A program made the position numbers and the translations under genes. Below, piece after piece: positions 24,074-39,686 of a DNA stretch of 64,000 bases (the stretch's first letter is position 1; each line of letters starts with the position of its first letter). The DNA lies in NCBI GenBank assembly GCA_963783305.1, contig CAWAMW010000007.1, positions 288,001-352,000 on the forward strand, in the 5' to 3' direction. Source of the stretch: an uncultured Gemmatimonadales bacterium (lineage in GTDB: Bacteria > Gemmatimonadota > Gemmatimonadetes > Longimicrobiales > RSA9). Under the pieces are notes generated by a model that was not told where the DNA came from, did no database searches, and saw only the letters and a list, made by a program, of their open reading frames with translations.

Positions 24074-25513
24074 TCAGGGCAGCAGCAGCACGCGCCCCAG
24101 CGGGGCCATGGCCCCTTCCGCGGCCAGCCCGGCCGCCAGGGTGGCCACCACGGTCGCCGCCAGCACCCACCCGGACCAGCGTCCCAGCACCGCCACGGGC
24201 GCCTCCGCCGCCGGTTGGAAGTAGGCGGGCCCCAGTACCCGGAGGTAGTAGAACAGCGAGGCCACGGTGTTGGCGACGGCGACGACGGCGAGCCAGCTGT
24301 AGCCGCCATCGATGGCGGCGCCGAAGATCATGAGCTTGCCGACGAACCCGCCGAGGGGCGGGATCCCGACCAGCGACAGGAAGGCGATGGCGAGGGCCGC
24401 GGCAACGGCGGGGCGGGCGCGGCCGAGTCCCCGGTAGTCGTCGAGGTCGGTCCGGCCCCGGAGATGGGTCACGACGGCGAACGCGCCGAAATTGGCGAGG
24501 CCGTAGGCCAGGAGGAAGAAGAGGAGGCCCGACAGGGCGAGGTCGCTCAGGCCGAGGACGGCCACGGCCACCAGCGCGTACCCGGACTGGGAGACGGACG
24601 ACCAGCCCAGCATTCGCCGGACGTCCGTCTGCCAGAGGGCGCCCAGGTTGCCGAGTGTCATGGTGACGACGGCCAGGGCGGCGATCAGCAGACGCCACGG
24701 GACGAGCCCATCGGGCAGGAGGGACACGACTCGGGCCAGCGCGACGAGCGCGCCGACCTTGGGCACCACCGTGAGGAATGCCGCAGAGGGCGCCGGCGAT
24801 CCCTCCGCCACGTCCGGGAGCCACGTGTGGGCCGGGAACGCCGCCAGCTTGTACGTCAGTCCCACCACCATGAAAGCGACGGCGACCAGCAGGCCCCAGC
24901 GCGCCCCGCCCGCTGCGCCCGCCGGGCTCGCCGCGCCGGCGGCCAGGCCCCGCCGGATTCCTTCGTACCCGGTGTCGCCGAGGAGGCCGAACAGGATCAC
25001 CACGCCGGCCACCAGCAGTGCGTTGGCCAGCGCGCCGACCAGGAAGTACTTCATCCCGGCCTCGACGGCCAGCGGCCAGTCCCGGTGGTAGGCGGCGAGG
25101 GTAAAGCCGGTGACGGACGACAGGAGCACGGCCACCACCAGCTGCATCGTGTCGGCGGCGCCAGCCATGAGCACCGCCCCCACCGTCGACAGGAGGAGAA
25201 CGGCGTAGAACTCGCCGTGGCGGCGGTCGCTGCGGAACCAGTCGGGGGCCAGGCCGAGGGCGAGACCGGCGAAGAGGAGGATCATGAGCCGCGCGGCGAT
25301 GGTGGCGCCGTCGAGGGCCCAGGTCCCGTGGAAGGTGAGCCGCGCGGGTCCCCCCACCTGGCGGACGCTGAGCCAGGCTGCGGCGGCGAGGCCGGCGAGT
25401 GCGAGGAGGGCGCAGAGGGTGTGTCGTCTGTGGGGGATGAACGCGGCCACCAGTAGCGTGACCACGGCGGCCACGACCAGCGCGATCTCCGGGAAGAGGT
25501 CGCCTACGGGCAT
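24074..25513 (-). CDS. nuoN: NuoN-like antiporter subunit
   Basis: EAGMKYFLVGA, YKLAAFPAHTWLPDVAEGSP, RRMLGWSSVSQSGY, SLVGIPPLGGFVGK. Confidence 0.85.
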   Translation of the reverse strand: MPVGDLFPEIALVVAAVVTLLVAAFIPHRRHTLCALLALAGLAAAAWLSVRQVGGPARLTFHGTWALDGATIAARLMILLFAGLALGLAPDWFRSDRRHGEFYAVLLLSTVGAVLMAGAADTMQLVVAVLLSSVTGFTLAAYHRDWPLAVEAGMKYFLVGALANALLVAGVVILFGLLGDTGYEGIRRGLAAGAASPAGAAGGARWGLLVAVAFMVVGLTYKLAAFPAHTWLPDVAEGSPAPSAAFLTVVPKVGALVALARVVSLLPDGLVPWRLLIAALAVVTMTLGNLGALWQTDVRRMLGWSSVSQSGYALVAVAVLGLSDLALSGLLFFLLAYGLANFGAFAVVTHLRGRTDLDDYRGLGRARPAVAAALAIAFLSLVGIPPLGGFVGKLMIFGAAIDGGYSWLAVVAVANTVASLFYYLRVLGPAYFQPAAEAPVAVLGRWSGWVLAATVVATLAAGLAAEGAMAPLGRVLLLP

Positions 25514-26997
25514 CAGCCCGCTCCCACCAGGACGACGGCGGCGCTCTCGACCAGCGTCAGTAGGAAGCGCGGGTAGACGCCGATGAGCACCACGAGGGCC
25601 AGGAGCACGCCGAGCACCAGCCGCTCCCGCAGCCCCAGGTCCGGGAAGTCCGTCCACCGCTCCGGGAGCGCGCCGAAGAAGAGGTCGCGGAGCATGAGGA
25701 GGAAGAGCGCGGCGGTCACCAGGACGCCGACCAGGGCGAGGCCGGCGAGCCAGGGGAAGACGCCGAAGGTGCCGATGAAGATCTGGATCTCGGCCACGAA
25801 CCCGGCCAGGCCCGGCAGCCCGAGGCTGGCGAAGGCGGCCAGCGTGGTGGCCGTGGTCAGGACGGGCGCGGGGCCGGCCAGGCCGCCGTAGGCGTCCAGG
25901 TCGTATTCCTCGGTCCGCTGCCAGAAGGAGCCGGCGATGAGGAAGAGCGCGCCGGTGATGAGCCCGTGGGCGATCATCTCCACCGTGGCCCCGGTGAGGG
26001 CCAGCCGGCGGGCGGCCTCCGCCCCCGGCACCATGGCCCCCGCGGCGGCGATCCCGAGCACCGTGTAGCCCATGTGATTCACCGACGTGTACGCGATTCG
26101 CCGCTTCAGGCTCGACTGCGCCAGCGCCACCAGCGCGCCGTAGACGATGGATACCACGCCGATCACGCCGATGACCAGCGCCCACCGGTGGAAGGTCTCC
26201 CGCATCATGGAGTACGGGATCCGGATCAGGCCGTAGGTCCCCATCTTCAGGAGCACGCCGGCAAGGACGGTGGACGCTGGGCCGGGGGCGTCGACGTGGG
26301 CGGGCGGGAGCCAGGTGTGGAAGGGGACCACGGGCGTCTTGATCCCGAGCCCGATCCCCAGCCCCAGGAGCGCGAGCCCCGCCATCCCGTGGCCGGCCAG
26401 CGGCTGCTGGGCGATGAGCGCCCGCATGTCGAAGGTGTGGGGATCGCTGGCCAGGTAGAGCGCCAGGATCGCCAGCAGCATGGTGAGGGAGCCGGCCAGC
26501 GTGTAGAGGAAGAACTTGAGCGCGCTGCGCCGGGCGTCGCCGTGTCCCCAGCGGCCGATGAGGAAGAACATCCCCACGAGGCTCAGGTCGAAGAAGACGT
26601 AGAAGAGGAGGAGGTCGAGGGCCAGGAACACGCCCAGGGAGACGCCCTCCAGGAAGAGCAGCCAGGCGTAGTACTGACGGGGCCGCCCCAGGGTGTCCAC
26701 CGGGTACGCCACTGCCCCCGTGAACAGGAGGGCGCTCATGGTGGCCACGGCCAGGGAAATCCCGTCCACGCCCAGACGGTAGCCCACGCCCAGCGACGGG
26801 ATCCACGGCACGTCCGTCACCAGCTGGAACTGGGGGCCGCCCATGTCGAACCCGAGCCAGGCCACGACCAGCAGCGCGAGCGGAACGGCCGCCGACGCGG
26901 TCGCGAAGAGGCGCGCGGCGCCCTCCGTCCAGCGATTCGACACGACCAGCGCCGTGGCGGCCGCGAGGGGCAGGACCAGCGAAGCCGTCAGCAGCAT
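25513..26997 (-). CDS. nuoM: NuoM-like antiporter subunit
   Basis: LGVDGIS, KFFLYTLAGS, IKTPVVPFHTWLPPAHVDAP, LLKMGTYG, LGLPGLAGFVAE. Confidence 0.88.
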   Translation of the reverse strand: MLLTASLVLPLAAATALVVSNRWTEGAARLFATASAAVPLALLVVAWLGFDMGGPQFQLVTDVPWIPSLGVGYRLGVDGISLAVATMSALLFTGAVAYPVDTLGRPRQYYAWLLFLEGVSLGVFLALDLLLFYVFFDLSLVGMFFLIGRWGHGDARRSALKFFLYTLAGSLTMLLAILALYLASDPHTFDMRALIAQQPLAGHGMAGLALLGLGIGLGIKTPVVPFHTWLPPAHVDAPGPASTVLAGVLLKMGTYGLIRIPYSMMRETFHRWALVIGVIGVVSIVYGALVALAQSSLKRRIAYTSVNHMGYTVLGIAAAGAMVPGAEAARRLALTGATVEMIAHGLITGALFLIAGSFWQRTEEYDLDAYGGLAGPAPVLTTATTLAAFASLGLPGLAGFVAEIQIFIGTFGVFPWLAGLALVGVLVTAALFLLMLRDLFFGALPERWTDFPDLGLRERLVLGVLLALVVLIGVYPRFLLTLVESAAVVLVGAG

Positions 26998-27000
26998 TCC

Positions 27001-28932
27001 TCAGCCTCCCAGGATGAGCAGGACCAGGACCGCGGCGAGCCCCGCCACGACCAGTCGGTAGTAGTGATGCGCGAGCCCGGTCTGGAGCCGCCGCGCCTGA
27101 GCGCCGCCCCATGCCACCAACCGCGACGCGCTCTCCGGCACCCCGTCGAACAGCGCCTCTCCCGGTCGCTGACCGAGCCACGCCAGCCCCCGTCCCACCG
27201 CCGCCGTCAGCCGCACACCGCCATCGACGATCCGGTCGTCGAAGAGAGCGACGGCCCCGGCCAGGGCGGCGACTCCGGTACGGACCCCACGGACCGCGCC
27301 ATCCACCGCCGCGTCATCCACACGAGCCAGCGCGTGAGCCAGGAGCCGGCCCGGTCGGACCACGCCCTGCCGGGCGAGGGCTGGCAGCCCGAGCCAGTCC
27401 GCCGGTCCCGCGGCCACGTCCCAGCCGAGCCCCGGCCGGCGGCGGGCCACCTCCCACCCCGTGAGCACGCCCAGGGCGACCAGCCCCAGCGACACCGCAA
27501 CCTCCCATGGCCTGAAGGGTGGGATCTCCCCGTCGAGCAGGTGGCCGGCGGCGCCATGGAGGGGGGGGAGCCAGAGGACGCCGAGCGCCACGGTCGCCGC
27601 GGCGAGCAGGTACAGGGGCCAGCGCTCGAGAGAGCGCGGGGACCGGCCGTCTCGGGCGGTGGAGCCGGTCCCGAAGGCCTGGAAGAAGAAGCGGGCCATG
27701 TAGGCGGCCGAGAGGGCGCCGGCCAGCGCCGCCGCCACGGCGACCCAGGGAGCCGCGTGGCCCGCCGTGGTCACCACCGCCTCCTTCGTCCAGGCGGCGC
27801 CGAGGGGCGGGAGCCCGGCGATGGCCCCGGCAACGACGAGCGTCGCCGTCGCGATCCCCGGCAGCACGCGGCGCAGCTCCATGCGCCAGAGCTCGTAGCT
27901 GCCCGCGCACTCGTGGGCGATCCCGGTGGCCAGGAACAGGGGCGCCTTGGCCAGGGCGTGGGCCACCAGGTGCAGCGCGGCCACCGCCGGATAGCCCGCT
28001 CCCACCGCCAGGAACATGAGCCCGTAGTGGGCGGAGGTGGAGCCGGCCAGCAGGCGCTTGGCGTGAGACTGGAGCAGGGCGACGACGCCGGCCATCAGCG
28101 CCGTCGTCAGCCCCACCGCCATGGTCGCCGCCCCGAACCAGGGCGCCGTGTCCAGCACCGTGTGGAGCCGGATCAGCAGGAAGGCGCCGGCCGCCACCAT
28201 GGTCGCCGCGTGCAGCAGCGACGAGACCGTCACCGGGCCCTTCATGGCCACGAACAGCCATGGCGCGAACGGGACCTGTGCCGATTTCGCCGCCGCGGCC
28301 ACCAGCACCCCCGCCACCACGAGATGGAGATGGAGCCCGTCGAGTCCGCCCAGCGCCCCGTACTCCAGGGAGCCGACCCCGGCGAACGCGGCTCCCAGGG
28401 CAAGGAACAGCCCCAGGTCGCCCGCCCGGGTCGTAACGAACACGATGGACCCCGCCCGCGGGTTCTCCCCGTCCCGCCAGTGGTGGGCGATGAGCACCGC
28501 CGAGCACGCGCCGATCAGCTCCCAGCCCAGCAGCAGCGTCAGCAGGTCCGCCGCCCCCGCCACCACCTCCATCGCCGCGACGAAGAAGGCCAGCACCGCC
28601 AGCAGACGCGTCAGCCCCCGGCCCTCCTCGTGGCCCGCGCCGTACGCCAGCACCGGCGCCGCCACTACCGGAACCAGCACCGCGAACAGCGCGGCCACCG
28701 GCGACGTGGCGGGGGCGTAGTCCAGGCTCAGCCCCAGGCTCTCGCTCCACGGCAGACGACCCGTCCACCCGGCCCACGCCGCGAAGGCCGCCACCCCCGC
28801 GGTGAGGGCCATGGCCGCTGCCGCCGTAACCGCCAGTCGTCCCCTCGGCGGCTCGCCGTCCATGCCGTCACGGCCGACGCCGGCCAGCAGGAGCGCCGCG
28901 AGGAGGGGAACGAGAGGGACGAGCCACGCCAT
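27001..28932 (-). CDS. nuoL: NuoL-like antiporter subunit
   Basis: LLGWELIG, AKSAQVPFAPWL..AMKGPVTVSSLLHAATMV, HLVAHALAKA, C-terminal VDG...RRLQTG. Confidence 0.88.
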   Translation of the reverse strand: MAWLVPLVPLLAALLLAGVGRDGMDGEPPRGRLAVTAAAAMALTAGVAAFAAWAGWTGRLPWSESLGLSLDYAPATSPVAALFAVLVPVVAAPVLAYGAGHEEGRGLTRLLAVLAFFVAAMEVVAGAADLLTLLLGWELIGACSAVLIAHHWRDGENPRAGSIVFVTTRAGDLGLFLALGAAFAGVGSLEYGALGGLDGLHLHLVVAGVLVAAAAKSAQVPFAPWLFVAMKGPVTVSSLLHAATMVAAGAFLLIRLHTVLDTAPWFGAATMAVGLTTALMAGVVALLQSHAKRLLAGSTSAHYGLMFLAVGAGYPAVAALHLVAHALAKAPLFLATGIAHECAGSYELWRMELRRVLPGIATATLVVAGAIAGLPPLGAAWTKEAVVTTAGHAAPWVAVAAALAGALSAAYMARFFFQAFGTGSTARDGRSPRSLERWPLYLLAAATVALGVLWLPPLHGAAGHLLDGEIPPFRPWEVAVSLGLVALGVLTGWEVARRRPGLGWDVAAGPADWLGLPALARQGVVRPGRLLAHALARVDDAAVDGAVRGVRTGVAALAGAVALFDDRIVDGGVRLTAAVGRGLAWLGQRPGEALFDGVPESASRLVAWGGAQARRLQTGLAHHYYRLVVAGLAAVLVLLILGG

Positions 28933-28934
28933 GG

Positions 28935-29240
28935 TCAGCCCTCCAGCGTGGTGAGGCCCTCGGTGGTGTCCACCTGCCGGTCCCGGTAGACCGCCACCAC
29001 CAGAGCGAACCCCATGGCCATCTCCAGCGCCATCACCGCCATGATCACGATCGCCAGCAGCTGCCCTTCAGGCGCGAAGCCCGCCGCCAGCGCCCAGAAC
29101 GCCCCCACCGCCAGGATCAGCCCGTTCAGGATCAGCTCGAGGCCCATCATCAGCATCACGAACGACTGCTGCGACAGCGCGCCGTAAACCCCGATTCCCA
29201 CCAGCACGGCCGCCACCAGGAGGAGCGCAGTCAGGGTCAT
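28935..29240 (-). CDS. nuoK: NuoK-like subunit
   Basis: 101 aa, 3 TM; MMGLELILNG and MALEMAMG (both conserved Glu). Confidence 0.88.
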   Translation of the reverse strand: MTLTALLLVAAVLVGIGVYGALSQQSFVMLMMGLELILNGLILAVGAFWALAAGFAPEGQLLAIVIMAVMALEMAMGFALVVAVYRDRQVDTTEGLTTLEG

Positions 29241-29839
29241 CCGTGCCGCCCGTGGTGGTGGCCGCCGCCCTCACTGGGACGCCGACCGGCGGGCTCGCCG
29301 CCCGGCTGGAGGCCCGGGGGCCGCGAGCCTTCATCGGCGCTGCCGTAGCGGCCCCGGCGGCTGGAGAGGATGACGGAGCCGATCATGCCGGCCAGGAGGG
29401 TGACGCCGGCGGACTCGAAGATGAGCATGGAGGCGCCGAGGAGCTCGTGGCCGAGGGTGGCGATGGGGTCGGCGGGGGCCGGTCCGCCCGCGGGGAACTC
29501 GACGAGCAGGGCCACGCTGGCCAGCAGGGCCGCTACGCCGACGCCGGCGGCCAGGGCGGTCCTCGGCTGGTGGACCATGTTCATGGGATTGAGCCCGGCG
29601 GGGTTCATCATGAACATGACCATGAAGAGGGCCATGACCATCATCTCGACGGCCATCATGAAGATCAGGGCGAAGCCCAGGTAGGGGGCGGCCAGGAGCA
29701 GGAGGATGGCCGCTACCGCGATGAAGGAGGTGAGGAGGAAGAAGGAGGCCCGGACCATGGAGTCGGTCCGGAAGACCCGCCAGCCGCTGACGATGGCCAG
29801 GGCGGCGAAGAGCCAGAAGAAGAGGTCGATGGCGCTCAC
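29237..29839 (-). CDS. nuoJ: NuoJ-like subunit, Met-rich, with His-rich tail
   Basis: GTG start; 5 TM; LFMVMFM, LGHELL..LIFESAGVTLLAGMIGSVIL; C-terminus GGGHHHGRHG. Confidence 0.8.
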   Translation of the reverse strand: MSAIDLFFWLFAALAIVSGWRVFRTDSMVRASFFLLTSFIAVAAILLLLAAPYLGFALIFMMAVEMMVMALFMVMFMMNPAGLNPMNMVHQPRTALAAGVGVAALLASVALLVEFPAGGPAPADPIATLGHELLGASMLIFESAGVTLLAGMIGSVILSSRRGRYGSADEGSRPPGLQPGGEPAGRRPSEGGGHHHGRHG

Positions 29840-30765
29840 AGCAGCACCGCCACCCCGGCGGCCGCCAGCGCCAGGAACGAGAGGGGGAGCAGGCCGACCC
29901 AGACCAGCGTCACCACGCGCTCGGTGGCGATCCGCGCCCCCAGGCGACCCAGGAGCGCCAGGAGCGCCAGCAGCGCCACCGTCTTCAGCGCCAGCCAGAT
30001 GGGCCCCGGCAGCCACGGCCCGAGCCAGCCGCCCAGGTAGACCGTCGCCGCCACGGCCGCAAAGGCCACCAGCATGGCTCGCCGAGCCAGCTCCCACACC
30101 AGTCGCGACGGGCCCGACACCTCGGCGGCGGTGCCTCCGGCCAGGTCCCGGGAGTCGGCGAAGTCCAGCGGCCCCCAGAAGGCCACGCCCAGCCCCACGA
30201 ACAGGAAGAGTGGGAGCCCCAGCGGCTGCCGGACCACGTTCCACAGCCCGCGCTGGGACTCCACGATGGCGGACAGCCGGAGCGACTCGGCCGGGAGGGC
30301 CGCGGCAATGAGGACGAACATGCTGACCAGCATGTAGGCCAGCCCGAGGGCCACGTAGCGGTAGCCCCCGATCAGGGGGAGCGGCGCGTTCGCCGACCAC
30401 CCATGGAGGAAGATCGCCACCACCGCCAGAGACTCCACCGCCCCCCATAGCACAATACCCGCGGCCACGTCTCCCGGCGCCGAGGCGGCCGACCACGGCA
30501 CGACTCCCAGCCCCACCGCCGCCAACCCCAGGTAGAGAGCCGGGGCCAGCACCCACGCCGGTCCGTCCGGCCGCTCCGTGTGGCTCCGCTGCTGAACCAG
30601 CGTCAGCGCCGCTCGCCGTGCCGGCCCCAGCGGATCCAGCCGCGGCCGCCGCCTCGCCACCACCGCACCCGCCACACCGTCCATCAGTGTGAACAGCCAC
30701 ACCCCCGCAAGCAGGGCGACGCCCACCACCGCCAGGGCCAGGAGCGGAGACACGGGCGCCGGCAT
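29836..30765 (-). CDS. nuoH: NuoH-like subunit (divergent)
   Basis: LAPAL, GWSAN..LIGGYR, LSAIVESQ..WNVVRQPLG, PLDF..LAGGTAAEVSG, VYLGGW, WLALKT. Confidence 0.8.
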   Translation of the reverse strand: MPAPVSPLLALAVVGVALLAGVWLFTLMDGVAGAVVARRRPRLDPLGPARRAALTLVQQRSHTERPDGPAWVLAPALYLGLAAVGLGVVPWSAASAPGDVAAGIVLWGAVESLAVVAIFLHGWSANAPLPLIGGYRYVALGLAYMLVSMFVLIAAALPAESLRLSAIVESQRGLWNVVRQPLGLPLFLFVGLGVAFWGPLDFADSRDLAGGTAAEVSGPSRLVWELARRAMLVAFAAVAATVYLGGWLGPWLPGPIWLALKTVALLALLALLGRLGARIATERVVTLVWVGLLPLSFLALAAAGVAVLL

Positions 30766-31898
30766 CAGGGGGTCTCCTCGAACCCGGCTGGGGCGCCACC
30801 GGCGGGGGCGTACGTCCGGGCGTTCAGCAGCAGAACCGCCTCTCCCCACTCCAGCCCCGGCAGCCGGTCGGCCAACGCAGCGGCGTCGCCCCGGGGCACA
30901 TCGAAGGCCGCCGCTTCCGACGTCCCGCCGCCGCCGCCCGCACCGCGCCTCGCGGTCACCACCCCCTCCCGAGCCGACGCCAGTCCCTCCCGCAGCAGCC
31001 CCCGCACGTCCTCCCCCGCCACCCGCGCCGGGAGCGCCGCCAGCGTCCCGCCCCGGCGCGTCCACCGTTCCAGCCGACGCACTTCGCCTGGCGCGACTCT
31101 TCGTGCGAGGGCGAGGGACAGGGCCCGGTCCCCCAGCGCCGTCGCCCCCGCGACCCGGAGAAGCCGCGCCGACCAGCGCAGGAGCCGACGCGCCCTCTCC
31201 ACGTCGCCGTCACGCGTTGCCCCGGGCCGGAAGGCGTCCTCGGGGAAGGGCGGCTCCAGCACCTCCGCCTCCTGGATGACGTCCCCCTGGAGCGCGAGGC
31301 GCAGCACCAGGCCTGGTGGGAAGGGCGGGAAGAACGGGCCGACGGTGAGCTCGAGGCGGTCGAGGGCGAGGCCGTCGCGGCCGTCGTCGTCGGTCATGGC
31401 CATGGGGCGGCCGTACGGCACGCCGCCCATCATCCCCTCCCCGCCCTGGCCGTGGTCGCCGCGTCCGCGCCACGGGTGGGGCGGACGATCCGGCCGGCGG
31501 TGCCCCTCCGATTCCCGCTCTCCGAGAACCAGCGACCGGTGCAGGGAGCGCAGCGCCGGGACGGGATCCGCCTCCGTCGGCACCCGGTCCGGCGCCGACC
31601 CCCCCTTCGGCGCTATCCCCCCCTGCAGCCCCGGAAGCGGCGCGTCCGCGCCCCAGCGGAGCGTCGTCCGGGGGTGGGGCACCTGGTCGTGGACGCGGTC
31701 CAGCGCTTCCTGGAACCGGAGCGGAATGGCGCCGGCGACCAGCAGCACCGTGGCGTGGCGGGGCGAGTCCACCAGCCGGATCCCCGGGCGGAGCCGGAGC
31801 GCCTCGACCCGCTCCCGGGCGCCCGCGCCCACGGCCGCGAAGACGGGAGCGGGCGCAGATGCGGCCAGCCGACCGGCCACCCGCCGGAGCCCCGTCAC
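30765..31898 (-). CDS. Degenerate NuoB-like/NuoD-like fusion without cysteines
   Basis: SPRHATVLLVAG..RVHDQVPHPR resembles NuoB SPRQADVMIVAG..RVYDQMPEPK; LTVGPFFPPFPPGLVLRLALQGDVI resembles NuoD LNxGPxHP..HGVLRLxLxLDGE; zero Cys; start (GTG) uncertain. Confidence 0.65.
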   Translation of the reverse strand: MTGLRRVAGRLAASAPAPVFAAVGAGARERVEALRLRPGIRLVDSPRHATVLLVAGAIPLRFQEALDRVHDQVPHPRTTLRWGADAPLPGLQGGIAPKGGSAPDRVPTEADPVPALRSLHRSLVLGERESEGHRRPDRPPHPWRGRGDHGQGGEGMMGGVPYGRPMAMTDDDGRDGLALDRLELTVGPFFPPFPPGLVLRLALQGDVIQEAEVLEPPFPEDAFRPGATRDGDVERARRLLRWSARLLRVAGATALGDRALSLALARRVAPGEVRRLERWTRRGGTLAALPARVAGEDVRGLLREGLASAREGVVTARRGAGGGGGTSEAAAFDVPRGDAAALADRLPGLEWGEAVLLLNARTYAPAGGAPAGFEETP

Positions 31899-32248
31899 TG
31901 CCACCGGAAAATCCCCTCGCGCCACCCGTAGACGATTCCCACCGACAGGATGGCCAGGAACATCCCCATCTCCATCAGCGCCTTCATCCCCTCCTGGACG
32001 TACACTACCGCCCAGGGGTACATGAACATCATCTCCATCTCGAAAGCGATGAAGAGGAGGGTCATGGAGTAGTAGCGGACGTGGTAGCGGCTCCAGGCGT
32101 GGGTCGCCGGCTCGCCACCACCGAGGAAAGGCGCGGCCTGCGGGTCGGTCCGCGGTCGGCGGTCGAGCCGGTCGAGCACCACCTGCACGGCCACGGCGAG
32201 AGCCATGGGCGTCACGAAAAGCACGAGCAGTGCGGCCAGGGTAGTCAT
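31895..32248 (-). CDS. nuoA: NuoA-like subunit
   Basis: 3 TM; YHVRYYSMTLLFIAFEMEMMFMYPWAV, YGWREGIFRW. Confidence 0.88.
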   Translation of the reverse strand: MTTLAALLVLFVTPMALAVAVQVVLDRLDRRPRTDPQAAPFLGGGEPATHAWSRYHVRYYSMTLLFIAFEMEMMFMYPWAVVYVQEGMKALMEMGMFLAILSVGIVYGWREGIFRWQ

Positions 32249-32413
32249 GACGCGGTCCGGCCCCGCAGAACCCACGCCAGCATCACGGACAAGGACGGAA
32301 CCCGGCCGTCGGCGAGCACCCTGCCCGTGGCCGTCGTGGCGAGCCCCCTTCCGGGGTCTTTACTCAGATCGCGTCATACGACTCCGCGGCTCCGCCCGGC
32401 CGGGCGAAAACGC

Positions 32414-32545
32414 CCGGAACGCCGCACGGTACCGCTCGAGCTCCACGCCGATTCGCGCGCCCGGATCTCCTCGTGGTGCGCGCCCAGCGCCCAGTACTCG
32501 AGGAACAGCCGCGTATGCTCCGGCTGGTGCGACTGCCGCGTCTGC
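32414..32545 (-). pseudogene. TetR paralog remnant (C-terminal fragment, frameshifted, HTH deleted)
   Basis: HQPEHTRLFLEYWALGAHHEEIR plus, in another frame, ELERYRAAFR; about 65/70 nt identical to 3337-3406 of the intact TetR. Confidence 0.85.
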
Positions 32546-32590
32546 GCCGCTTCGGTCCCGCTGGACGTGCGGTGGGACGTGCGCCCTCTA

Positions 32591-32638
32591 TTGACCAATT
32601 GGAAAGTAAGTACTATGTTGAACTTTCCGAGTGGTCAA
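32591..32638. promoter_or_regulatory. Second copy of TetR-type operator with sigma70 promoter facing cheBR
   Basis: TTGACCAATTGGAAAGT-N14-ACTTTCCGAGTGGTCAA; plus strand TTGACC-N17-TATGTT. Confidence 0.75.
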
Positions 32639-32712
32639 TAGGCCAGCACCGACCGCTCATCACCACTGGCGATCCGCGCCGGTCGGCTCCTCCCTCTCTG
32701 AAGGGATCGCAC

Positions 32713-35700
32713 ATGAGGACCTCACGAGTGTCGCAGGACGCTTCGGTTGTTGGAGGCCGGGGGGCGACCTGGAGGCGGCCATCGCTGGTGGTGGGGATCG
32801 GGGCATCGGCGGGGGGTCTGAAGGCGCTGCAGCAGTTCGTGGAGGCGGTGCCGGCGGACAGCGGGCTGGCGTTCGTGGTGATCCTGCACCTGGATCCGAC
32901 GCGGGAGAGCCGGATGGCGGAGCTGCTCCAGGACCGGGCGGCGATCCCGGTGACGCAGGTGGTGGGGCCGACGAGGGTGGCCGCGGATCACATCTACATC
33001 ATTCCGCCGGGCCATGATCTGGCGATGATCGGGGACAGCGTGGTGCTGCGGGATCGCGGGGAGCGAGCGGATCACGCGCCGGTGGATCTCTTCTTCCGCA
33101 CGCTGGCGGAGGCGTTCGGCGCGGACGCGGTGGGGGTGGTGCTGTCGGGCACCGGCGGCGATGGAACGGCTGGAGTCCGCTACATCCGTGGTGCGGGCGG
33201 GATCACGGTGGCGCAGTCGCCGGAAGACGCCGAATACGATGCCATGCCGGTGAGTGCCATTGCTACGGGTCTGATCGACCTGGTGCTGCCGTGCGGGGGC
33301 ATGACGGGGGAGCTGATCCGCCTGAGCCGGAAGCAGTCGGGCGTTGGGAACGAGGCGTCGGGATCCCCGGAGACGGCGAGTGAGACGGACGCGGGGCTGG
33401 CGGCGATCTTCGCGGCGTTGAGGAGCCGCACGGGGCACGATTTCAGCCTGTACAAGCGATCAATGGTGCTGCGGCGCCTGGACCGGCGGCTTCGTTTCAA
33501 CAACGTGGACGCCCTGGCGGACTACGTTCCGCTGCTGGAATCGGATGCGCGGGAGGGTCAGGCGCTGCTGGGTGACTTCCTCATCTCGGTGAGCAGCTTC
33601 TTCCGTGACGGCGAGGAGTTCGAGGCGCTGGCCCGCCTGGTGCCCGCGCTGTTCGTGGGCAAGGAGCCGGGCGAGACCGTGCGGGTCTGGGTGGTGGGGT
33701 GCGCGACGGGGGAGGAAGTCTATTCGGTGGCGATGGTGCTGGCGGAGCATGCGGCGACGCTCCTCGATCCGCCGGAGCTTCAGATCTTTGCCACCGACAT
33801 CGACGAGAAGGGGTACGGGTGGGCCCGAGCGGGGCTCTACACGGCCGCGGCCGTGGCGAACGTGGAGCCCGAGCGGCTGCAGAAGTTCTTCACGAAGGAG
33901 CCGGGTGGGTACAGGATCGCAAAGTCGCTGCGGGAGCGGGTCCTTTTCGCGGGTCACAACGTCCTCCACGATCCGCCTTTCTCGCGCATCGACCTGATCA
34001 CCTGCCGGAACCTCTTCATATATCTGAGGCCGGAGGCGCAGGAGCGCGTGCTGGAGACGTTCCATTTCGCGTTGCGGCCTGGGGGGATGTTGTTTCTGGG
34101 CACGTCGGAGTCGGCGGCGGACTCGGGGTTGTTCGACAAGACCGATGGCGGCGCGAACCGGATCTACCTGCGGGGTGCCGCACCGAGGCGAGCGCCTCCG
34201 CGTGTTTCGGCGGCGGACCCGCAGCGGACCGGGGGGAGCCCGGTGACCTCGCCGGGGGGTGCGAAGGCGACGGGCGCGTCAGGGGAGCGGTTCTCGTATG
34301 GCGCGCTGCACCTCCGCATGCTGGAGGAGTATGCCCCGGCCAGCGTGATCGTCGACGAGCGGTTGAACGTGGTGCACCTGTCCGCGGGTGCCGGGCGGTT
34401 CCTCCACCTGCGGGCGGGGGAGCCGAGCCACAGCCTCCTGGGACTGGCTCGAGAGGATCTGCGGCGCGTCCTGCGCACGGCGCTGCACAGGGTCTTCAGG
34501 GACAGGGTGCCGATCACACGGCGGATCCAGATGGAGGTGGACGGAGCCCGGCGGCCGGTGACGGTGCGCATTCGTCCTTCTCCCGAGGACGGTGCAGCAG
34601 GCCGCTTCGCGCTGATCGTGTTCGAGGCCCACATCGGGTCGGTCGCCGCCCCGGTCAACGAGGCGGAGGGCGAGCCGGATCCGGCCGAGATCGAGTTGGA
34701 GGACGAGCTCCGGGTGATGCGGGATCTGCTGGAGTCGAGCAACCTGGAGCATGACCGGACGATGTCGGAGCTGCAGACGGTCAATGAAGAGATGCAGTCG
34801 GTGAACGAGGAGCAAAGGGCGGCGACCGAAGAGCTCGAGACCGGCCGGGAGGAGATCCAGTCCATCAATGAAGAACTGACCACGATCAACCAGGAACACC
34901 AGAGCACCATCGAGGAGCTGAAGCGGACGAACGCGGACCTTCAGAACCTGATCGAGTCGACCGAGATCGGTACGATCTTCCTGGACCGTTCGCTGCGCAT
35001 CCGGCGCTTCACTCCCATGGCGGCCGCACTCTTCAACTTCGTCGACGCGGACAGGGGTCGATCGCTCTCCGACATCACGCATCGCCTGCGCTACCATTCC
35101 CTGCAGAGCGATGTATCCGACGTGCTCGAGTCGCTGGATCCCATCGAGCGGGAGATGCAGAGTGAAACGGGGGACCCCTATATCGTCCGCATCAGGCCGT
35201 ACCGCTCCATGGACGGGGATTACGACGGCGTGGTCCTTACGTTTTTCGACAATACGGCGCAGCACGACGCGCGGGAGCGGCTGCGGAAGGCGACGCGAGT
35301 GGCCGAGGCGGCCAATATCGCGAAGGGGACCTTCCTGGCCACGATGTCCCATGAGTTCCGCACGCCGCTGAACGCCATCCTTGGCTACGCGGACCTGCTC
35401 CAGAGCCTCGGTCCCCTGAGCCAGGATCAGGAGATGAAGGTCGGCAGGATCAAGGCGGGGGCGTGGCATCTGGCGGCCATGATCGACGATATCCTGAGCT
35501 TCGCGAAGCTGGACGGAGGGTACGAGGAGGTGCACCCGGAGCCCATGGACGCGCGGCTGATCGCGCGGGAGGCCGGGGCGCTGGTGGAGCCGGCGGCGAC
35601 TGCGAAATCGCTGGCCTTCGTCGTGGACGTGCCCGACGAACCGCTGGAGCTGACCACGGACGTGGACAAGGCGCGACAGATCCTGGTCAACCTGTGTGGC

Positions 35701-36015
35701 AACGCGGTGAAGTATACGGATGAGGGCGAGATCCGGCTGGAGGTGCGGGCCGAAACGGGTGGCACGGCCGGCGCGCGCGGGGTGGACGGGGTGGCTTTCG
35801 TCGTACGCGATACGGGGGTGGGCATCGCGCCGGAGCATCATGAGCGGATCTTCGAGCGGTTCTGGCAGGTGGACGGCGCCTCCCCCCGGGCGGCGGGCGG
35901 CCTGGGGATCGGCCTCGCCGCGGCCCGGGAGTACGCCCGGCTGCTGGGGGGGGATGTGAGCGTGGAGAGCGTGCCAGGCGGGGGCAGCACCTTCCGGCTC
36001 TGGCTGCGCCGATGA
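32713..36015 (+). CDS. CheB methylesterase-CheR methyltransferase-PAS-histidine kinase fusion
   Basis: GIGASAGG/ILHLDP/LSGTGGDG (CheB S-H-D); GCATGEE, IFATDID, ITCRNL (CheR); coiled coil ELQTVNEE; SHEFRTPL, NAVKYT, DTGVGI, GLGIGL. Confidence 0.92.
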   Translation: MRTSRVSQDASVVGGRGATWRRPSLVVGIGASAGGLKALQQFVEAVPADSGLAFVVILHLDPTRESRMAELLQDRAAIPVTQVVGPTRVAADHIYIIPPGHDLAMIGDSVVLRDRGERADHAPVDLFFRTLAEAFGADAVGVVLSGTGGDGTAGVRYIRGAGGITVAQSPEDAEYDAMPVSAIATGLIDLVLPCGGMTGELIRLSRKQSGVGNEASGSPETASETDAGLAAIFAALRSRTGHDFSLYKRSMVLRRLDRRLRFNNVDALADYVPLLESDAREGQALLGDFLISVSSFFRDGEEFEALARLVPALFVGKEPGETVRVWVVGCATGEEVYSVAMVLAEHAATLLDPPELQIFATDIDEKGYGWARAGLYTAAAVANVEPERLQKFFTKEPGGYRIAKSLRERVLFAGHNVLHDPPFSRIDLITCRNLFIYLRPEAQERVLETFHFALRPGGMLFLGTSESAADSGLFDKTDGGANRIYLRGAAPRRAPPRVSAADPQRTGGSPVTSPGGAKATGASGERFSYGALHLRMLEEYAPASVIVDERLNVVHLSAGAGRFLHLRAGEPSHSLLGLAREDLRRVLRTALHRVFRDRVPITRRIQMEVDGARRPVTVRIRPSPEDGAAGRFALIVFEAHIGSVAAPVNEAEGEPDPAEIELEDELRVMRDLLESSNLEHDRTMSELQTVNEEMQSVNEEQRAATEELETGREEIQSINEELTTINQEHQSTIEELKRTNADLQNLIESTEIGTIFLDRSLRIRRFTPMAAALFNFVDADRGRSLSDITHRLRYHSLQSDVSDVLESLDPIEREMQSETGDPYIVRIRPYRSMDGDYDGVVLTFFDNTAQHDARERLRKATRVAEAANIAKGTFLATMSHEFRTPLNAILGYADLLQSLGPLSQDQEMKVGRIKAGAWHLAAMIDDILSFAKLDGGYEEVHPEPMDARLIAREAGALVEPAATAKSLAFVVDVPDEPLELTTDVDKARQILVNLCGNAVKYTDEGEIRLEVRAETGGTAGARGVDGVAFVVRDTGVGIAPEHHERIFERFWQVDGASPRAAGGLGIGLAAAREYARLLGGDVSVESVPGGGSTFRLWLRR

Positions 36016-37193
36016 CCGCTCCACAGGTGGCGGCGATGCCGGAGGTCATGGCCGGCGCCGCTCCCGCACGGGCGGAGATCCTGACTCAGGGAGGGAACCT
36101 GATCGTCGTGTTGGCTGGCGACTGGCGGCTGGAGGCGGAGGCGCCGCGGTTCGAGGAACTCCTGGACGCCGGACCCGCCGCGGGGGCGGCCGGCGGGACC
36201 ATCGCGGCCGTCCGCTTCGACAGCAGCGCGCTGGGGGCGTGGGACAGCAGCCTGCTGGTGTTCCTGCAGCATGCCCACGGGTACTGCGAAGCACGGGAGC
36301 TGGATCTCGATGACTCGGGGCTGCCCGAACCGATCACGAGACTGCTTGCCCTGTCCAGGGCGGTGCCGGAACGCGAGGCAGCGCCGGACCCGCCCCGGGT
36401 CTCTCGGCTCGCCCGGCTCGGGAATGCCGGCATCTCCGCGTGGGACTCGGGGCTGGACGCCGTCACGTTCACGGGCCAGGTGACGGACAGCGTGATCCGG
36501 CTGCTGCTGCGCCGGGTCCGGATGCGATGGCGTGACTTCTGGGTGGTGGTGCAGACGAACAGCTCGGGCGCGTTCCCCATCGTCACGCTCATCGCCATCC
36601 TCATCGGCGTGATCATCGCCTTCCTGGGTGTGGTGGTCCTGCGGCGGTTCGGCGCCGGGTACTACGTGTCGTATCTGGTCGGGTACGGCATCCTGCGGGA
36701 GATGGGCGCGCTGATGACCGGCATCATCATGGCGGGGCGGACGGGCGCCGCGTTCGCCGCCGAGCTGGGCAGCATGAAGATCACCGAGGAGATCGACGCG
36801 TACACAACCCTCGCCATCTCACCCATCGACCACCTGGTGCTCCCCCGCGTTCTCGGCCTCCTCGTGATGATGCCGCTGCTCGTGATCTACGCCGATTTCA
36901 TCGCCATTGGGGGCGGGATGCTCGTAGCCATCGGGCTCCTGGACCTGACGCCGACCCAGTTCGTGGGTGGTCTGCTGTCCGTGGTCACCCTCTCGGACGC
37001 CGTGCTCGGCGTCTTCAAGGGCGGCGTTTTCGGCCTCATCATTGGCCTTGCCGGATGCATGAAGGGACTCCAGACCGGCTCGGACGCCGGGGCGGTGGGT
37101 CGGTCGGCCACGTCGGCGGTGGTGCTGGGCATCACGCTGATCATCGTGGCCAACGCGCTGATCGACTGGCTCGCGGTCCTGGTACACGTATGA
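36012..37193 (+). CDS. MlaE-family ABC permease with N-terminal STAS-like domain
   Basis: LGAWDSS; LREMGALMTGIIMAGRTGAAFAAELGSMKITEEIDA; VGRSATSAVV. Confidence 0.92.
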   Translation: MTAPQVAAMPEVMAGAAPARAEILTQGGNLIVVLAGDWRLEAEAPRFEELLDAGPAAGAAGGTIAAVRFDSSALGAWDSSLLVFLQHAHGYCEARELDLDDSGLPEPITRLLALSRAVPEREAAPDPPRVSRLARLGNAGISAWDSGLDAVTFTGQVTDSVIRLLLRRVRMRWRDFWVVVQTNSSGAFPIVTLIAILIGVIIAFLGVVVLRRFGAGYYVSYLVGYGILREMGALMTGIIMAGRTGAAFAAELGSMKITEEIDAYTTLAISPIDHLVLPRVLGLLVMMPLLVIYADFIAIGGGMLVAIGLLDLTPTQFVGGLLSVVTLSDAVLGVFKGGVFGLIIGLAGCMKGLQTGSDAGAVGRSATSAVVLGITLIIVANALIDWLAVLVHV

Positions 37194-37987
37194 CCGCCGC
37201 CCAGCTCGCCGGCGCCGGGCGCGGGGCCCCCGGGCCGCCCACCATCGAGGTGAGCGATCTGATGATGATGTACGGGTCGCTCCTCATCATGAAGGAGCTG
37301 ACCTTCTCGGTCACCAAGGGTGAGGTCTTCGTCATCATGGGCGGGAGCGGGAGCGGGAAGAGCACGCTGTTGAAGCACCTGATCGGGCTCAAGGACCCGG
37401 CGCAGGGCAGGATCCTGTTCCACGGTGAGGATTTCGGCGGGGCGGCCCCGGAGGAGCGGAAACGAATGCTTCGCAGGATGGGCGTCCTCTACCAGAACGG
37501 CGCCCTTTGGGGCGGTCTCACCCTCGGGGAGAACGTGGCGCTGCCGCTGGAGGAGTTCACCGCGCTGGACGCCCGGGCCATCGGCGAGGTGGTGGCCCTG
37601 AAGCTGGCGCTGGTGGGGCTCAGCGGGTACGAGGAGTTCTATCCCGCGGCGATCAGTGGCGGGATGCGGAAGCGCGCGGCTCTGGCCCGGGCCATCGCGC
37701 TGGATCCGGAGGTGGTCTTCTTCGACGAGCCGTCGTCCGGCCTGGATCCCATCAGCGCCAGCCGGCTGGACGACCTGATCCTGGAGCTGAAGGCGAGCTT
37801 CGGCACCACCATCATCGTGGTGACCCACGACCTGGCCAGCATCTTCAGGATCGCCGACCGGGCGCTGTTCCTGGACATCGGAGCCAGGACCATGACGGCC
37901 CTCGGCAGCCCCGCAGAGCTGCGGGATGACCCGCCGAGCGAGCAGGTCCACCAGTTCCTCACCCGCAGCAGCGAAGGCGCATCATGA
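37190..37987 (+). CDS. MlaF-like ABC transporter ATP-binding protein
   Basis: GGSGSGKS, ISGGMRKR, FFDEPSSGLDP, VTHD. Confidence 0.93.
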   Translation: MTAAQLAGAGRGAPGPPTIEVSDLMMMYGSLLIMKELTFSVTKGEVFVIMGGSGSGKSTLLKHLIGLKDPAQGRILFHGEDFGGAAPEERKRMLRRMGVLYQNGALWGGLTLGENVALPLEEFTALDARAIGEVVALKLALVGLSGYEEFYPAAISGGMRKRAALARAIALDPEVVFFDEPSSGLDPISASRLDDLILELKASFGTTIIVVTHDLASIFRIADRALFLDIGARTMTALGSPAELRDDPPSEQVHQFLTRSSEGAS

Positions 37988-38970
37988 GCATCCGCGCGAA
38001 TCCCACGGCCATCGGGTCGTTCCTGATCGGCGGCCTGGTCCTGCTGGTAGCGGGGACGGCGACGCTGGCGTCCACGGCCTGGTTCGACGAGAGGTCCACC
38101 TTCATCAGCTTCTTCGAGGAGTCGGTGAACGGCCTCGAGAATGGCGCCCCGGTGAAGTTCCAGGGCGTGCCCGTGGGGAATGTGACCGGGATGCGGATCC
38201 AGATCGACGAGCGCGACAAGACGTTCCAGGTCCCCGTGGAGTACGAGATCGACCTCACCCGCCTGAGGAACCAGACGGGGACCTTCGTCGACCTGGACGA
38301 AAGCGGCGTGCTGGAACGCCAGATCGCCGACGGCCTCCGCGCACAGCTGCAGATGGAGAGTATCGTCACCGGCCAGCTCTACATCGAGCTCAGCTACCGC
38401 ACCGACCCGGCGCCGCCGGAGCTGGAAGAGCGGCGCACCCCCTGGCCGGAGATTCCTACCTCGCCGTCCCTCCTGGCGGCGCTGGGCACCGGCGCGGGCA
38501 GCCTCGTGGCCGACATCCTCAGGGTGCTCTTCCAGGTCAATGAGATGCTGGCCGAAATCGACATGCCCCAGATCAACGAAGCCGTGATGGCGTCCGCGGA
38601 AGCGGTGGAAGGGCTGGTCGCGGGGCCGGAGCTCCAGGCAGCCCTCGAGCAGCTGCCGGGCCTGACGGCCCAGGCCAACCGGACCATGGAGGAGCTGGGA
38701 CGCCTCGCCGTGAACGCGGACGCCGCCATCGCGCCGATCCAGCTCCAGCTGGAGGGGACGGCCACGGAGCTGACGGCCACCCTCGAGGTCATGCGCAGGA
38801 CGCTGGAGGAGACGCACGGTCTGCTATCCACCGACTCCGGGCTCGGCTACGAGCTCCAGGAGACGCTGACCAGCCTCAGGGAAGCCGCGGACGCGCTCAA
38901 CCTGCTCGTCACCTCCCTCGAGCAGAACCCCGACATGCTGTTGCGCGGCCGGAAGCCGCCGGAGAACTGA
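37984..38970 (+). CDS. MlaD/MCE-domain protein
   Basis: N-terminal TM; SVNGLENGAPVKFQGVPVGNV; LQMESIVTGQLYIEL; helical tail ending NPDMLLRG. Confidence 0.92.
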   Translation: MSIRANPTAIGSFLIGGLVLLVAGTATLASTAWFDERSTFISFFEESVNGLENGAPVKFQGVPVGNVTGMRIQIDERDKTFQVPVEYEIDLTRLRNQTGTFVDLDESGVLERQIADGLRAQLQMESIVTGQLYIELSYRTDPAPPELEERRTPWPEIPTSPSLLAALGTGAGSLVADILRVLFQVNEMLAEIDMPQINEAVMASAEAVEGLVAGPELQAALEQLPGLTAQANRTMEELGRLAVNADAAIAPIQLQLEGTATELTATLEVMRRTLEETHGLLSTDSGLGYELQETLTSLREAADALNLLVTSLEQNPDMLLRGRKPPEN

Positions 38971-38972
38971 TC

Positions 38973-39686
38973 ATGAACTGGAACGTGGCACGAAGCGCAT
39001 CTCTCGCGGTCCTCGGGGTGCTGATCCTGGCCATGATGCCGGGGTGCTTCAGCCTGGGGCGTACCTCCCCAACGGTGGAGCAGTACGTGATCGGGGGAGC
39101 CGAGCCGGCCGCCGCGGTGGGGCCCGTTCCCGGGGTCGACGGTGTGGCGGTGGGCCTGCGGGGGATCGATCTCGCCCCCTACCTCGCGACGCGCGCCATC
39201 GTGGTGCGGCGCGGGAGCCATGAGGTCGTGACGTCCGACTACCACCGGTGGGGCGAGGACCTCGCCGAGGGCATCAACCGGGCACTCGCCCGGCACCTGG
39301 CCGCGACGGAGTCGTTCCGTGCGGTGGATGTGGCGCCGTGGCCGGTTCGTACGTCGTACGACTACGTGGTCCGGATCCACATCACACGGTTCGAGGGCGT
39401 GGTGCCCGGGGCGACGTCTCCGACGGCGGGAGCGGCTGCCGGAGCAGGGGAGGGAGCGTCCCACGTGGGCGCCTCGTGGGAGATCATCCGGCAGCAGGAC
39501 GGGACGGTGCTCGCCCGCGGAGCTACGGAGCACGTGGAGGAGGGCTGGGTGGTAGGTGATTACGCAGCCCTCGTCGCCCTCCTGGATGAGGGGCTGGCCG
39601 TGCTGGCCCGTGAGGTGACGGCAGCCATTCGGGGGCTGGCGGTGAAGGCGGCGGACGCCAGCCGGACCGGCGCTGACCGGCGATGA
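38973..39686 (+). CDS. PqiC-like ABC transport auxiliary lipoprotein
   Basis: Signal ending MPGC; LAPYL, YHRWGEDL, ITRFEG motifs; operon position. Confidence 0.85.
   Translation: MNWNVARSASLAVLGVLILAMMPGCFSLGRTSPTVEQYVIGGAEPAAAVGPVPGVDGVAVGLRGIDLAPYLATRAIVVRRGSHEVVTSDYHRWGEDLAEGINRALARHLAATESFRAVDVAPWPVRTSYDYVVRIHITRFEGVVPGATSPTAGAAAGAGEGASHVGASWEIIRQQDGTVLARGATEHVEEGWVVGDYAALVALLDEGLAVLAREVTAAIRGLAVKAADASRTGADRR

What the first reader, a model, noticed from the sequence alone, without database searches (positions are those of the whole stretch)
24074..32248. Complex-I-like operon with the full membrane arm but no redox module
Seen: contiguous, overlapping nuoA, X, nuoH, J, K, L, M, N. There is no nuoC, E, F, G or I and no Fe-S motif anywhere in the operon. 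Key Lys/Glu/His of the L, M, N and K proton pathway are largely retained. Known: complex I and its 11-subunit relatives need NuoB/C/D/I, while Mrp antiporters lack NuoA and NuoH. This set fits neither. Inference: a redox-independent, complex-I-derived secondary transporter.
Basis: partly seen in the sequence, partly recalled or inferred. Interest (0 to 1): 0.9.

Follow-up and report, generated by a model that had tools for sequence, protein, structure and literature searches.

The report
Redox-dead complex I, probable copper pump
This is an intact eight-gene copy of the membrane half of respiratory complex I that has lost every electron-carrying site and gained a methionine-lined core, and its relatives sit among copper-resistance genes, so it most likely uses the proton gradient to expel copper rather than to respire.

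Summary
Observation confirmed: nuoA-X-H-J-K-L-M-N at 32248-24074 (minus strand), three cysteines in all. A complete canonical nuoA-N lies elsewhere in the genome. X is a fusion of NuoB and NuoD folds with no Fe-S ligands. The order is kept in every relative that spans it, across phyla and on plasmids, under purifying selection. One carrier genome showed no canonical NuoB or NuoD.

Copper genes flank 6 of 11 sampled operons against 0 of 20 control regions. CsoR boxes precede 11 of 48. Best reading (about 55%): a proton-driven Cu(I) exporter. Transport is untested, and this window has no recognised copper gene or CsoR box.

The gene set is in print as a 'partial nuo operon' read as marine adaptation. 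I found no paper giving the copper-export mechanism. This scan reached the same reading before on at least nine other genomes.

The parts
31895..32248 (-). NuoA-like subunit (117 aa). Family-invariant H50, H56, E72, M73, M76, E93, M94 and M71 (46 of 47); the canonical loop Lys and Glu (E. coli K46, E51) are lost
30765..31904 (-). X: fusion of a NuoB fold (aa 1-130), a conserved Gly/Met/His linker (about aa 139-172) and a shortened NuoD fold (aa 168-368); no cysteine. Start probably GTG at 31904, matching the MAV start of homologs
29836..30765 (-). NuoH-like anchor (309 aa). The first-helix Glu-Arg pair and most of the acidic TM5-6 loop are lost; the E157 position is Met here and Glu in 26 of 41 relatives; new E111 and M149
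29237..29839 (-). NuoJ-like subunit (200 aa). Helix 3 (aa 52-77) carries invariant M61, M62, E65, M66, M69, M73, M77; the following loop M78, M86, M88, H90; also M28 and M138; His-rich tail in this copy
28935..29240 (-). NuoK-like subunit (101 aa). E35 and E73 kept; new invariant M29, M31, M70; canonical Arg (E. coli R25) replaced by Gln
27001..28932 (-). NuoL-like antiporter subunit (643 aa), proton-path residues kept
25513..26997 (-). NuoM-like antiporter subunit (494 aa), TM5 Glu replaced by Asp in 42 of 42
24074..25513 (-). NuoN-like antiporter subunit (479 aa), lysines kept, TM5 Glu lost
32249..32700 (.). Upstream region shared with a divergent CheB-CheR-PAS-histidine kinase gene. No CsoR consensus box; only a weak C-tract/G-tract hairpin near 32343-32360. 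One sigma-70-like site (32591-32619) faces the kinase gene

Best explanation
The operon encodes a membrane complex descended from complex I that works as a secondary transporter and exports Cu(I), and probably Ag(I). Shown: architecture, loss of all Fe-S ligands, retained proton paths in L/M/N, methionine and glutamate relining of A/J/K, purifying selection, and copper-linked context in relatives. Inferred: protons flow in through L, M and N down the proton-motive force; the charge wave along the central axis reaches the K/J/A site, the reverse of the normal pumping direction; Cu(I) is taken on the cytoplasmic side by the Met/His linker of X, the His pair of A and the Met/His loop of J, in some lineages probably from a small YHS protein; it passes along the methionine stripe of J helix 3 to the Glu/Met centre and leaves on the outer side. 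X is a cofactor-less cap on H, not an electron wire. Several protons per copper would give the large driving force that export from a tightly buffered cytoplasm needs (inference).
For: Met content of variant against canonical subunits: A 5.8% vs 2.5%, J 8.6% vs 3.5%, K 7.9% vs 3.8%; H, L, M and N are poorer in Met than the genome's own canonical copies (1.8-2.3% vs 3.4-4.6%), so the gain is local. J V58, Y59, A62 and I63 become M61, M62, E65 and M66 in 41 of 41, while 53 of 53 canonical J keep Tyr; the motif holds in the best 120 of 3970 further J hits. These residues line the D79(A)-E36(K) water wire (bioRxiv 10.64898/2026.01.27.702182, passages). In Mrp the NuoJ-Y59 position is the cation ligand E706 (PMC7419157, passages). 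Methionine triads select Cu(I) in Ctr1 and CusA and are not common ligands for Na+, K+ or Ca2+ (PMC6437178, passages). Copper markers in 6 of 11 sampled operon loci against 0 of 20 control regions of the same genomes, Fisher p 0.0006. All 5 plasmid regions opened lie in copper clusters. CsoR-type box within 200 bases of nuoA in 11 of 48, shuffled rate 0.5%, canonical nuoA 0 of 25 (consensus from PMC3902906). A YHS gene lies just upstream of nuoA in five loci. A nuo-like cassette inside the Marinobacter atlanticus copper operon rose together with copA (PMC8233155, passages).
Against: No transport, binding or knockout data exist for any member. This window has no recognised copper marker in 64 kb, and neither have the two stretches around the closest relative's operon (G036). 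The genome's own csoR-copA-copZ lies on another contig and its operator is not repeated before nuoA. Five of 11 sampled loci and 15 of 26 further loci show no copper marker; one sits by an arsenic operon and one by a cation-efflux gene. The 11 CsoR boxes come from about three lineages, nine from one clade. The Marinobacter cassette was described as lacking nuoM and nuoN and was not shown to be this family. Copper co-regulation does not prove that copper is the cargo. No model of the assembled A/J/K core was obtained, so the continuous methionine path rests on alignment to complex I and recalled topology.
Confidence: 0.55

Rival explanations
1. The complex helps under copper or osmotic stress but moves another ion: an Mrp-like Na+ or K+/H+ antiporter, or a copper-gated proton path for pH and potential control. 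This includes the published 'marine adaptation' reading.
For: Published comparative genomics ties the partial nuo operon to marine or salty isolates (PMC3314556, PMC6002675, PMC6676996; passages). The window's genome has only six antiporter-like subunits, so no Mrp was found in it. Many loci lack copper neighbours. A new Glu lies one turn from the Mrp cation ligand position.
Against: No MrpB, E, F or G, which form the Na+ entry path (PMC7419157). Methionine is a poor alkali-cation ligand (PMC6437178). Copper genes and CsoR boxes are enriched. G443 has seven other antiporter-like subunits besides the operon's three. The marine reading was never tested, and its own authors found the operon in rhizosphere and copper-rich mine isolates.
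Confidence: 0.2
2. It is still redox-coupled, with an unusual partner: a small metal protein (YHS), bound copper or a trans-encoded Fe-S protein docks on X, and a Cu(II)/Cu(I) or quinone reaction drives proton pumping.
For: X keeps both NuoB and NuoD folds and a conserved loop. A copper-redox-driven pump was suggested for the Marinobacter cassette. The genome has an orphan cysteine-bearing nuoB.
Against: No CCxxE motif in 249 X homologs and no NuoD His motif in any; no cysteine column above 19 of 72. No NuoI or NuoC. The salt-bridge residues that couple quinone chemistry (A K46 and E51, K R25, J Y59) are lost in the whole family. YHS genes were seen in only six loci.
Confidence: 0.1
3. It imports or delivers copper, for example to load cuproenzymes, with the same methionine path running inward.
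For: Methionine paths work in importers too (Ctr1). Neighbours include cytochromes c, DsbA/DsbD and multicopper oxidases.
Against: CsoR lifts repression when copper is high and controls efflux operons (PMC3902906). Cation import needs no three-subunit proton engine (inference).
Confidence: 0.07
4. It is a spare membrane arm that assembles with the canonical NuoB/C/D/I encoded elsewhere.
For: Most carrier genomes have canonical genes: NuoD in 4 of 4, NuoB in 9 of 10.
Against: G443 (drawn at 90% completeness or more) has the operon but no canonical NuoB or NuoD was found. X is always present and carries the two folds that would occupy the docking site. H has lost quinone-side acidic residues.
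Confidence: 0.05
5. It is a decaying relic of a duplicated nuo operon.
For: X has the highest dN/dS (up to 0.54); one plasmid copy is cut by an insertion element.
Against: All eight frames are open; dN/dS is below 0.55 in all eight informative pairs; M is 62-72% identical across phyla among the closest hits; new residues are invariant.
Confidence: 0.02

Closest known systems
Respiratory complex I (NuoA-N) and its 11-subunit relatives (NDH-1, Fpo)
   Same: All seven membrane subunits in canonical order; L/M/N proton-path residues and K glutamates kept; NuoB and NuoD folds present in X.
   Different: No NuoC, I, E, F or G; no N2 cysteines; B and D fused and shrunk; J Tyr59 and the A/K coupling residues lost; A/J/K relined with methionines; variant J, A and K each fall apart from canonical copies in trees.
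'Partial nuo / partial NDH-1 operon' (nuoA-hypothetical-nuoHJKLMN) of Salinispora, Kocuria flava S43 and Streptomyces SM17/SM18
   Same: Same gene order and patchy, horizontally acquired spread (PMC3314556, PMC6002675, PMC6676996). Very probably this family; sequence identity to those strains was not tested.
   Different: In the passages read, those papers treat it as a proton or sodium pump for marine life, leave X unidentified, and do not mention the lost cofactors, the methionines or a copper role.
Mrp Na+(K+)/H+ antiporter
   Same: A redox-free secondary transporter of the same superfamily; its cation site lies at the NuoJ helix 3 / NuoK / NuoN junction that is remodelled here.
   Different: Has H, A and a B-D cap, three antiporter-like subunits closer to Nuo than to Mrp, and no MrpB, E, F or G; the site is Met-rich.
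Marinobacter atlanticus CP1 nuoADHJKL cassette (ACP86_11540-11570)
   Same: Complex I-like genes inside a copper-resistance operon, expressed with copA (PMC8233155).
   Different: Described with seven genes and no nuoM or nuoN; may be a sister family with a heavy-metal-binding domain on NuoD (atlas cluster, score 0.77, a lead only). Identity with this family not tested.
Methionine-lined Cu(I) transporters (Ctr1, CusA) and CopA P1B-ATPases
   Same: Cu(I) is passed through thioether triads; the operon's relatives share regulons with CopA.
   Different: Unrelated folds. None is built on a complex I scaffold.

Membership tests
Complex I / 11-subunit complex I-like oxidoreductases | Membrane arm A, H, J, K, L, M, N | tested here: met
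   J fold Z 13.1, rmsd 4.0, 149 aligned to E. coli NuoJ
Complex I / 11-subunit complex I-like oxidoreductases | NuoB with the four cysteines of cluster N2 | tested here: not met
   X has the fold (Z 11.0, rmsd 2.8, 121 aligned) but no Cys; CCxxE in 0 of 249 homologs
Complex I / 11-subunit complex I-like oxidoreductases | NuoI and NuoC encoded with the module | tested here: not met
   eight contiguous genes leave no room; same layout in relatives
Complex I / 11-subunit complex I-like oxidoreductases | NuoD quinone site (His motif of the first beta loop) and NuoJ Tyr59 | tested here: not met
   the NuoD His motif is found in 0 of 249 X homologs; Tyr59 is Met in 41 of 41
Complex I / 11-subunit complex I-like oxidoreductases | Central-axis Lys/Glu/His in L, M, N, K | tested here: met
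   M Glu to Asp; N Glu lost, which is harmless in E. coli (PMC13073174)
Complex I / 11-subunit complex I-like oxidoreductases | Redox-driven proton pumping | not testable with these tools
   needs the purified complex
Mrp antiporter | MrpB, E, F, G sodium module; no NuoH or NuoA | tested here: not met
   all eight genes are assigned to Nuo families; none is left for MrpB, E, F or G
Mrp antiporter | No redox cofactor; carboxylate on the NuoJ-like helix 3 | tested here: met
   invariant E65 one turn from the E706/Y59 position
Mrp antiporter | Na+ or K+/H+ exchange | not testable with these tools
   needs vesicle assays
Group 4 [NiFe] hydrogenases, MBH/MBS and Ehr complexes | Four hydrophilic subunits with Fe-S clusters (and Ni ligands in hydrogenases) | tested here: not met
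   one Cys-free soluble subunit; CxxC in 4 of 249 homologs; definition from PMC8165549; Ehr features recalled
'Partial nuo operon' of marine actinomycetes | Order nuoA-hypothetical-H-J-K-L-M-N | tested here: met
'Partial nuo operon' of marine actinomycetes | Sequence orthology to the Salinispora or Kocuria copies | not tested
   those records were not fetched
Cu(I) exporters (works-like claim) | Conserved transmembrane Met ligands | tested here: met
Cu(I) exporters (works-like claim) | Copper-responsive regulation or linkage | tested here: inconclusive
   met in relatives; not seen for this copy
Cu(I) exporters (works-like claim) | Measured copper efflux or resistance | not testable with these tools
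   no experiment found in the searches

The most novel reading that the evidence does not exclude
A third functional class of the complex I / Mrp superfamily: complex I's membrane arm driven backwards by the proton-motive force as a multi-proton Cu(I)/H+ antiporter, with the E-channel turned into a methionine relay and the NuoB-NuoD module reduced to a cofactor-less copper-receiving cap. It would be a transition-metal pump on this scaffold and a mobile, ATP-independent copper-resistance system of a kind I did not find described.
Probability: 0.55. Interest if true: 0.92.

Novelty: categorically new. Interest (0 to 1): 0.82.

Why it matters
For bioenergetics, it is a natural complex I with the redox half removed and the coupling site rebuilt. 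It would let the long-disputed coupling along the central axis be tested without quinone chemistry, and it shows evolution running from complex I back to an antiporter. For metal biology, it would add an exporter class beside CopA and Cus that travels on plasmids. For annotation, thousands of proteins named 'NADH-quinone oxidoreductase subunit' (3970 J hits at E 1e-30 or better) would be misnamed, and the 'marine adaptation nuo genes' of several papers would need re-reading.

Tried and rejected
Complex prediction of X with H, A and J was not available, so docking of X on H and the geometry of the methionine path stay untested. No RNA holder was listed for the operon; this says nothing about expression. 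The pairwise profile tool failed; a local profile comparison found the NuoB match (probability 88.7%) but not NuoD against one canonical sequence; NuoD homology rests on the fold search, PF00346 on longer homologs and a weak TIGR01962 hit inside the Halomonas X. Foldseek alone showed only NuoB rows in its top 50. A CsoR or CueR box before this copy was sought and not found. A YHS motif was not found in the window. GC3 of the operon (0.90-0.97) is at or above the genome's range (5-95%: 0.83-0.94), so composition gives no sign of recent transfer. The near-identical pair L035/L071 gave dN/dS 1.03 for X on dN = dS = 0.006 and was set aside as uninformative. Supplements of PMC8233155 could not be read; they bear on whether that cassette is this family. 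The first look-up of earlier findings by X sequence was blank. Paper searches that found no copper-export reading; the library lacks most subscription papers.
Full report
Observation. The minus strand from 32248 to 24074 holds eight open, tightly coupled frames. NCBIfam names seven as NuoA, H, J, K, L, M and N. M scores 466 bits against the NuoM model and at most 159 against Mrp models; L and N are likewise closest to NuoL and NuoN. The eight proteins hold three cysteines, two in L and one in N. The same genome has a complete nuoABCDEFGHIJKLMN at C7:640-655 kb, whose subunits are 28-39% identical to these where tblastn finds them. The genome holds six antiporter-like subunits in all, three per operon.

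What X is. Residues 37-90 match NuoB (TIGR01957 E 1.3e-5; MbhJ E 3.4e-5). An AlphaFold2 model from 72 homologs (mean pLDDT 85.7, pTM 0.86) aligns residues 1-130 to NuoB-type chains (best Z 11.0, rmsd 2.8, 121 aligned) and 168-368 to NuoD-type chains (Paracoccus NuoD Z 11.9, rmsd 4.6, 198 aligned). The N2 motif CCxxE is in 0 of 249 homologs and the NuoD His motif in 0 of 249, while a new Gly/Met linker motif is in 222 of 249. No cysteine column exceeds 19 of 72. The linker is low-confidence in the monomer (aa 156-169), so it may order on a partner (inference). X is therefore a cofactor-less B-D fusion.

Spread and conservation. X has 612 hits among 8000 scored candidates and 1020 representatives at E 1e-10 or better, 285 at 1e-30. 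All 33 genome loci have nuoA directly before X; 28 span the full A-X-H-J-K-L-M-N order and 5 end at a contig edge. In even samples, full X was in 3 of 400 genomes of the phylum of G003 (Pseudomonadota) and 9 of 400 of the phylum of G004 (Actinomycetota), one of the nine unpublished and not used further. All 11 fetched had the eight genes in order. Among near relatives it was in 3 of 61 genomes, own included, and variant J in 2 of 301 of the own phylum, the second hit unpublished. It is accessory and mobile: seven plasmid records each for X and J. In a J tree the 41 variants form one side of a long branch (support 100/100) against 27 of the 53 canonical rows; A and K trees agree. dN/dS in eight informative pairs of nine is 0.01-0.48 for membrane subunits and 0.13-0.54 for X.

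Dependence on canonical subunits. Most carriers have them (NuoD 4 of 4; NuoB 9 of 10 tested). G443 has the intact operon, 99-100% identical to that of the Halomonas sp. KO116 plasmid, with NqrA but with no canonical NuoB or NuoD found. It was drawn at 90% completeness or more, so absence is likely but not proven.

The rebuilt core. Against canonical controls (25 A, 53 J, 54 K), the variants double their methionine in A, J and K only; H, L, M and N have less than the genome's own canonical copies. J carries M28, M61, M62, E65, M66, M69, M73, M77, M78, M86, M88 and H90 in 41 of 41 and M138 in 40 of 41. K carries M29, M31, M32, E35 and M70 in 45 of 45. A carries H50, H56, E72, M73, M76, E93 and M94 in 47 of 47. 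The helix-3 motif holds in 120 of the best 120 further J hits. Helix 3 spans 52-77 in the J model, and 62, 65/66, 69, 73 and 77 fall on one face. Alignment to E. coli NuoJ maps V58, Y59, A62 and I63 to M61, M62, E65 and M66. These line or gate the water wire between NuoA D79 and NuoK E36 (bioRxiv 10.64898/2026.01.27.702182, passages). Residues that change contacts between open and closed complex I (A K46 and E51, K R25; PMC10212512, passages) are lost in the family. In Mrp, the residue at the Y59 position is E706, which binds the cation with MrpC and MrpD residues (PMC7419157, passages). The proton engine is intact: the L, M and N lysines and histidines are kept; M has Asp for E144; N lacks E133, a loss that leaves E. 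coli complex I active (PMC13073174, passages). H keeps E157 in 26 of 41 relatives but has Met in this copy.

Copper context. Fourteen marker proteins taken from other loci were searched against one stretch of up to 20 kb per sampled genome: 6 of 11 operon loci hit, 0 of 20 control regions of the same genomes (Fisher p 0.0006). Pfam on 73 hand-picked frames (68 of the 184 called in these loci) confirms multicopper oxidase, CopB, CopC, CopD, CsoR-family and DUF305 genes. Of 26 further seed loci, 11 hit, mostly Pseudonocardiaceae. The five plasmid regions opened, of Halomonas, Roseivivax, Martelella, Acuticoccus and Pseudonocardia, all lie in cop, cueR or csoR clusters; the Martelella copy is cut by an insertion element. 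A CsoR-type box lies within 200 bases of nuoA in 11 of 48 loci, against 0.5% in shuffles and 0 of 25 canonical nuoA; one equals the core of the Streptomyces lividans copZA1 operator (PMC3902906, passages). These 11 come from about three lineages. The neighbouring repressors show a Cys-His-Cys pattern that I recall as the copper type. A YHS gene precedes nuoA in five usable loci.

Against. This window has no copper marker hit. The genome's csoR-copA-copZ is on contig C17 with its own palindrome, which is not repeated before nuoA. The closest relative G036 also shows none. Only a secreted Met/His-rich Ig-like protein and a cytochrome c, 9-10 kb away, hint at metal handling. No functional experiment was found.

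Mechanism. Shown: no cofactor sites, intact proton axis, a Met/Glu-lined site where the superfamily couples and where Mrp binds cations, selection, and copper linkage across phyla. Known: thioether triads select Cu(I) (PMC6437178, passages); complex I can run in reverse (PMC10212512). Inferred: inward protons through L, M and N drive Cu(I) out through A/J/K, with X as the cytoplasmic cap. I put this at 0.55, another ion or pH role at 0.2, an unusual redox input at 0.1, import at 0.07, a spare arm at 0.05 and decay at 0.02.

What is in print. The gene set was reported as a partial NDH-1 or nuo operon and read as a marine-adaptation pump (PMC3314556, PMC6002675, PMC6676996, PMC12199506; passages only). 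A nuo-like cassette in the Marinobacter atlanticus copper operon was co-expressed with copA and thought to be driven by copper redox (PMC8233155, passages; supplements unreadable). Searches found no paper describing X as a B-D relic, the methionine relining or copper export; the library lacks most subscription journals. Earlier notes of this scan reach the same reading on at least nine other genomes. I read them after recording the idea (note), and they are not independent evidence.

Verdict. A real, conserved, mobile system that fails the membership tests for complex I, Mrp and group 4 hydrogenases. Its gene order is known, its function is not. Interest 0.82; categorically new in architecture and probable function, pending a transport assay.

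Noticed in passing
window 41793-42767 (+) and 40993-41589 (+): A secreted-looking protein with two Ig-like (Big_5) domains and 30 Met and 17 His in 324 aa, behind a c-type cytochrome with a Met-rich linker; a possible copper-binding pair 9-10 kb from the operon.
   Followed up: partly
L053:8340-9038 (G000 C16:318340-319038): An orphan second nuoB that keeps its tandem cysteines, with no other nuo gene beside it.
   Followed up: partly
G000 C16:760542-777773: Two tandem four-gene [NiFe]-hydrogenase-like sets followed by maturation-type genes, judged from the translated starts.
   Followed up: no
G000 C17:503297-506482: The genome's csoR-copA-copZ operon with a G-tract palindrome upstream; no multicopper oxidase hit in the genome with the two queries used.
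   Followed up: partly
window 47898-50068 (-): A seven-haem cytochrome c gene followed by a His-rich membrane protein with no Pfam match.
   Followed up: no
window 32712-39686 (+): A CheB-CheR-PAS-histidine kinase gene run into an MlaE / ATPase / MlaD / auxiliary lipoprotein ABC set, divergent from the operon.
   Followed up: no
window 10553-15046 (-): An 881-aa protein with only a C-terminal redoxin domain recognised, in a run with an Lgt-family gene and two unknown genes.
   Followed up: no
L035:23015-25287, L071:9563-11832, L074:8791-10086: Ergothioneine genes (egtB, egtD) directly follow nuoN in three Gammaproteobacteria-type copies of the operon.
   Followed up: no
ESM Atlas cluster, rank 17: A 464-aa cluster with PF00346 (82%) and the heavy-metal-binding domain PF19335 (95%); score 0.77, a lead to a sister family with a metal domain on NuoD.
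   Followed up: no
L084:8388-10006: In G488 the operon follows an arsenic set (aquaporin, ArsR, ArsC-type) instead of copper genes.
   Followed up: no
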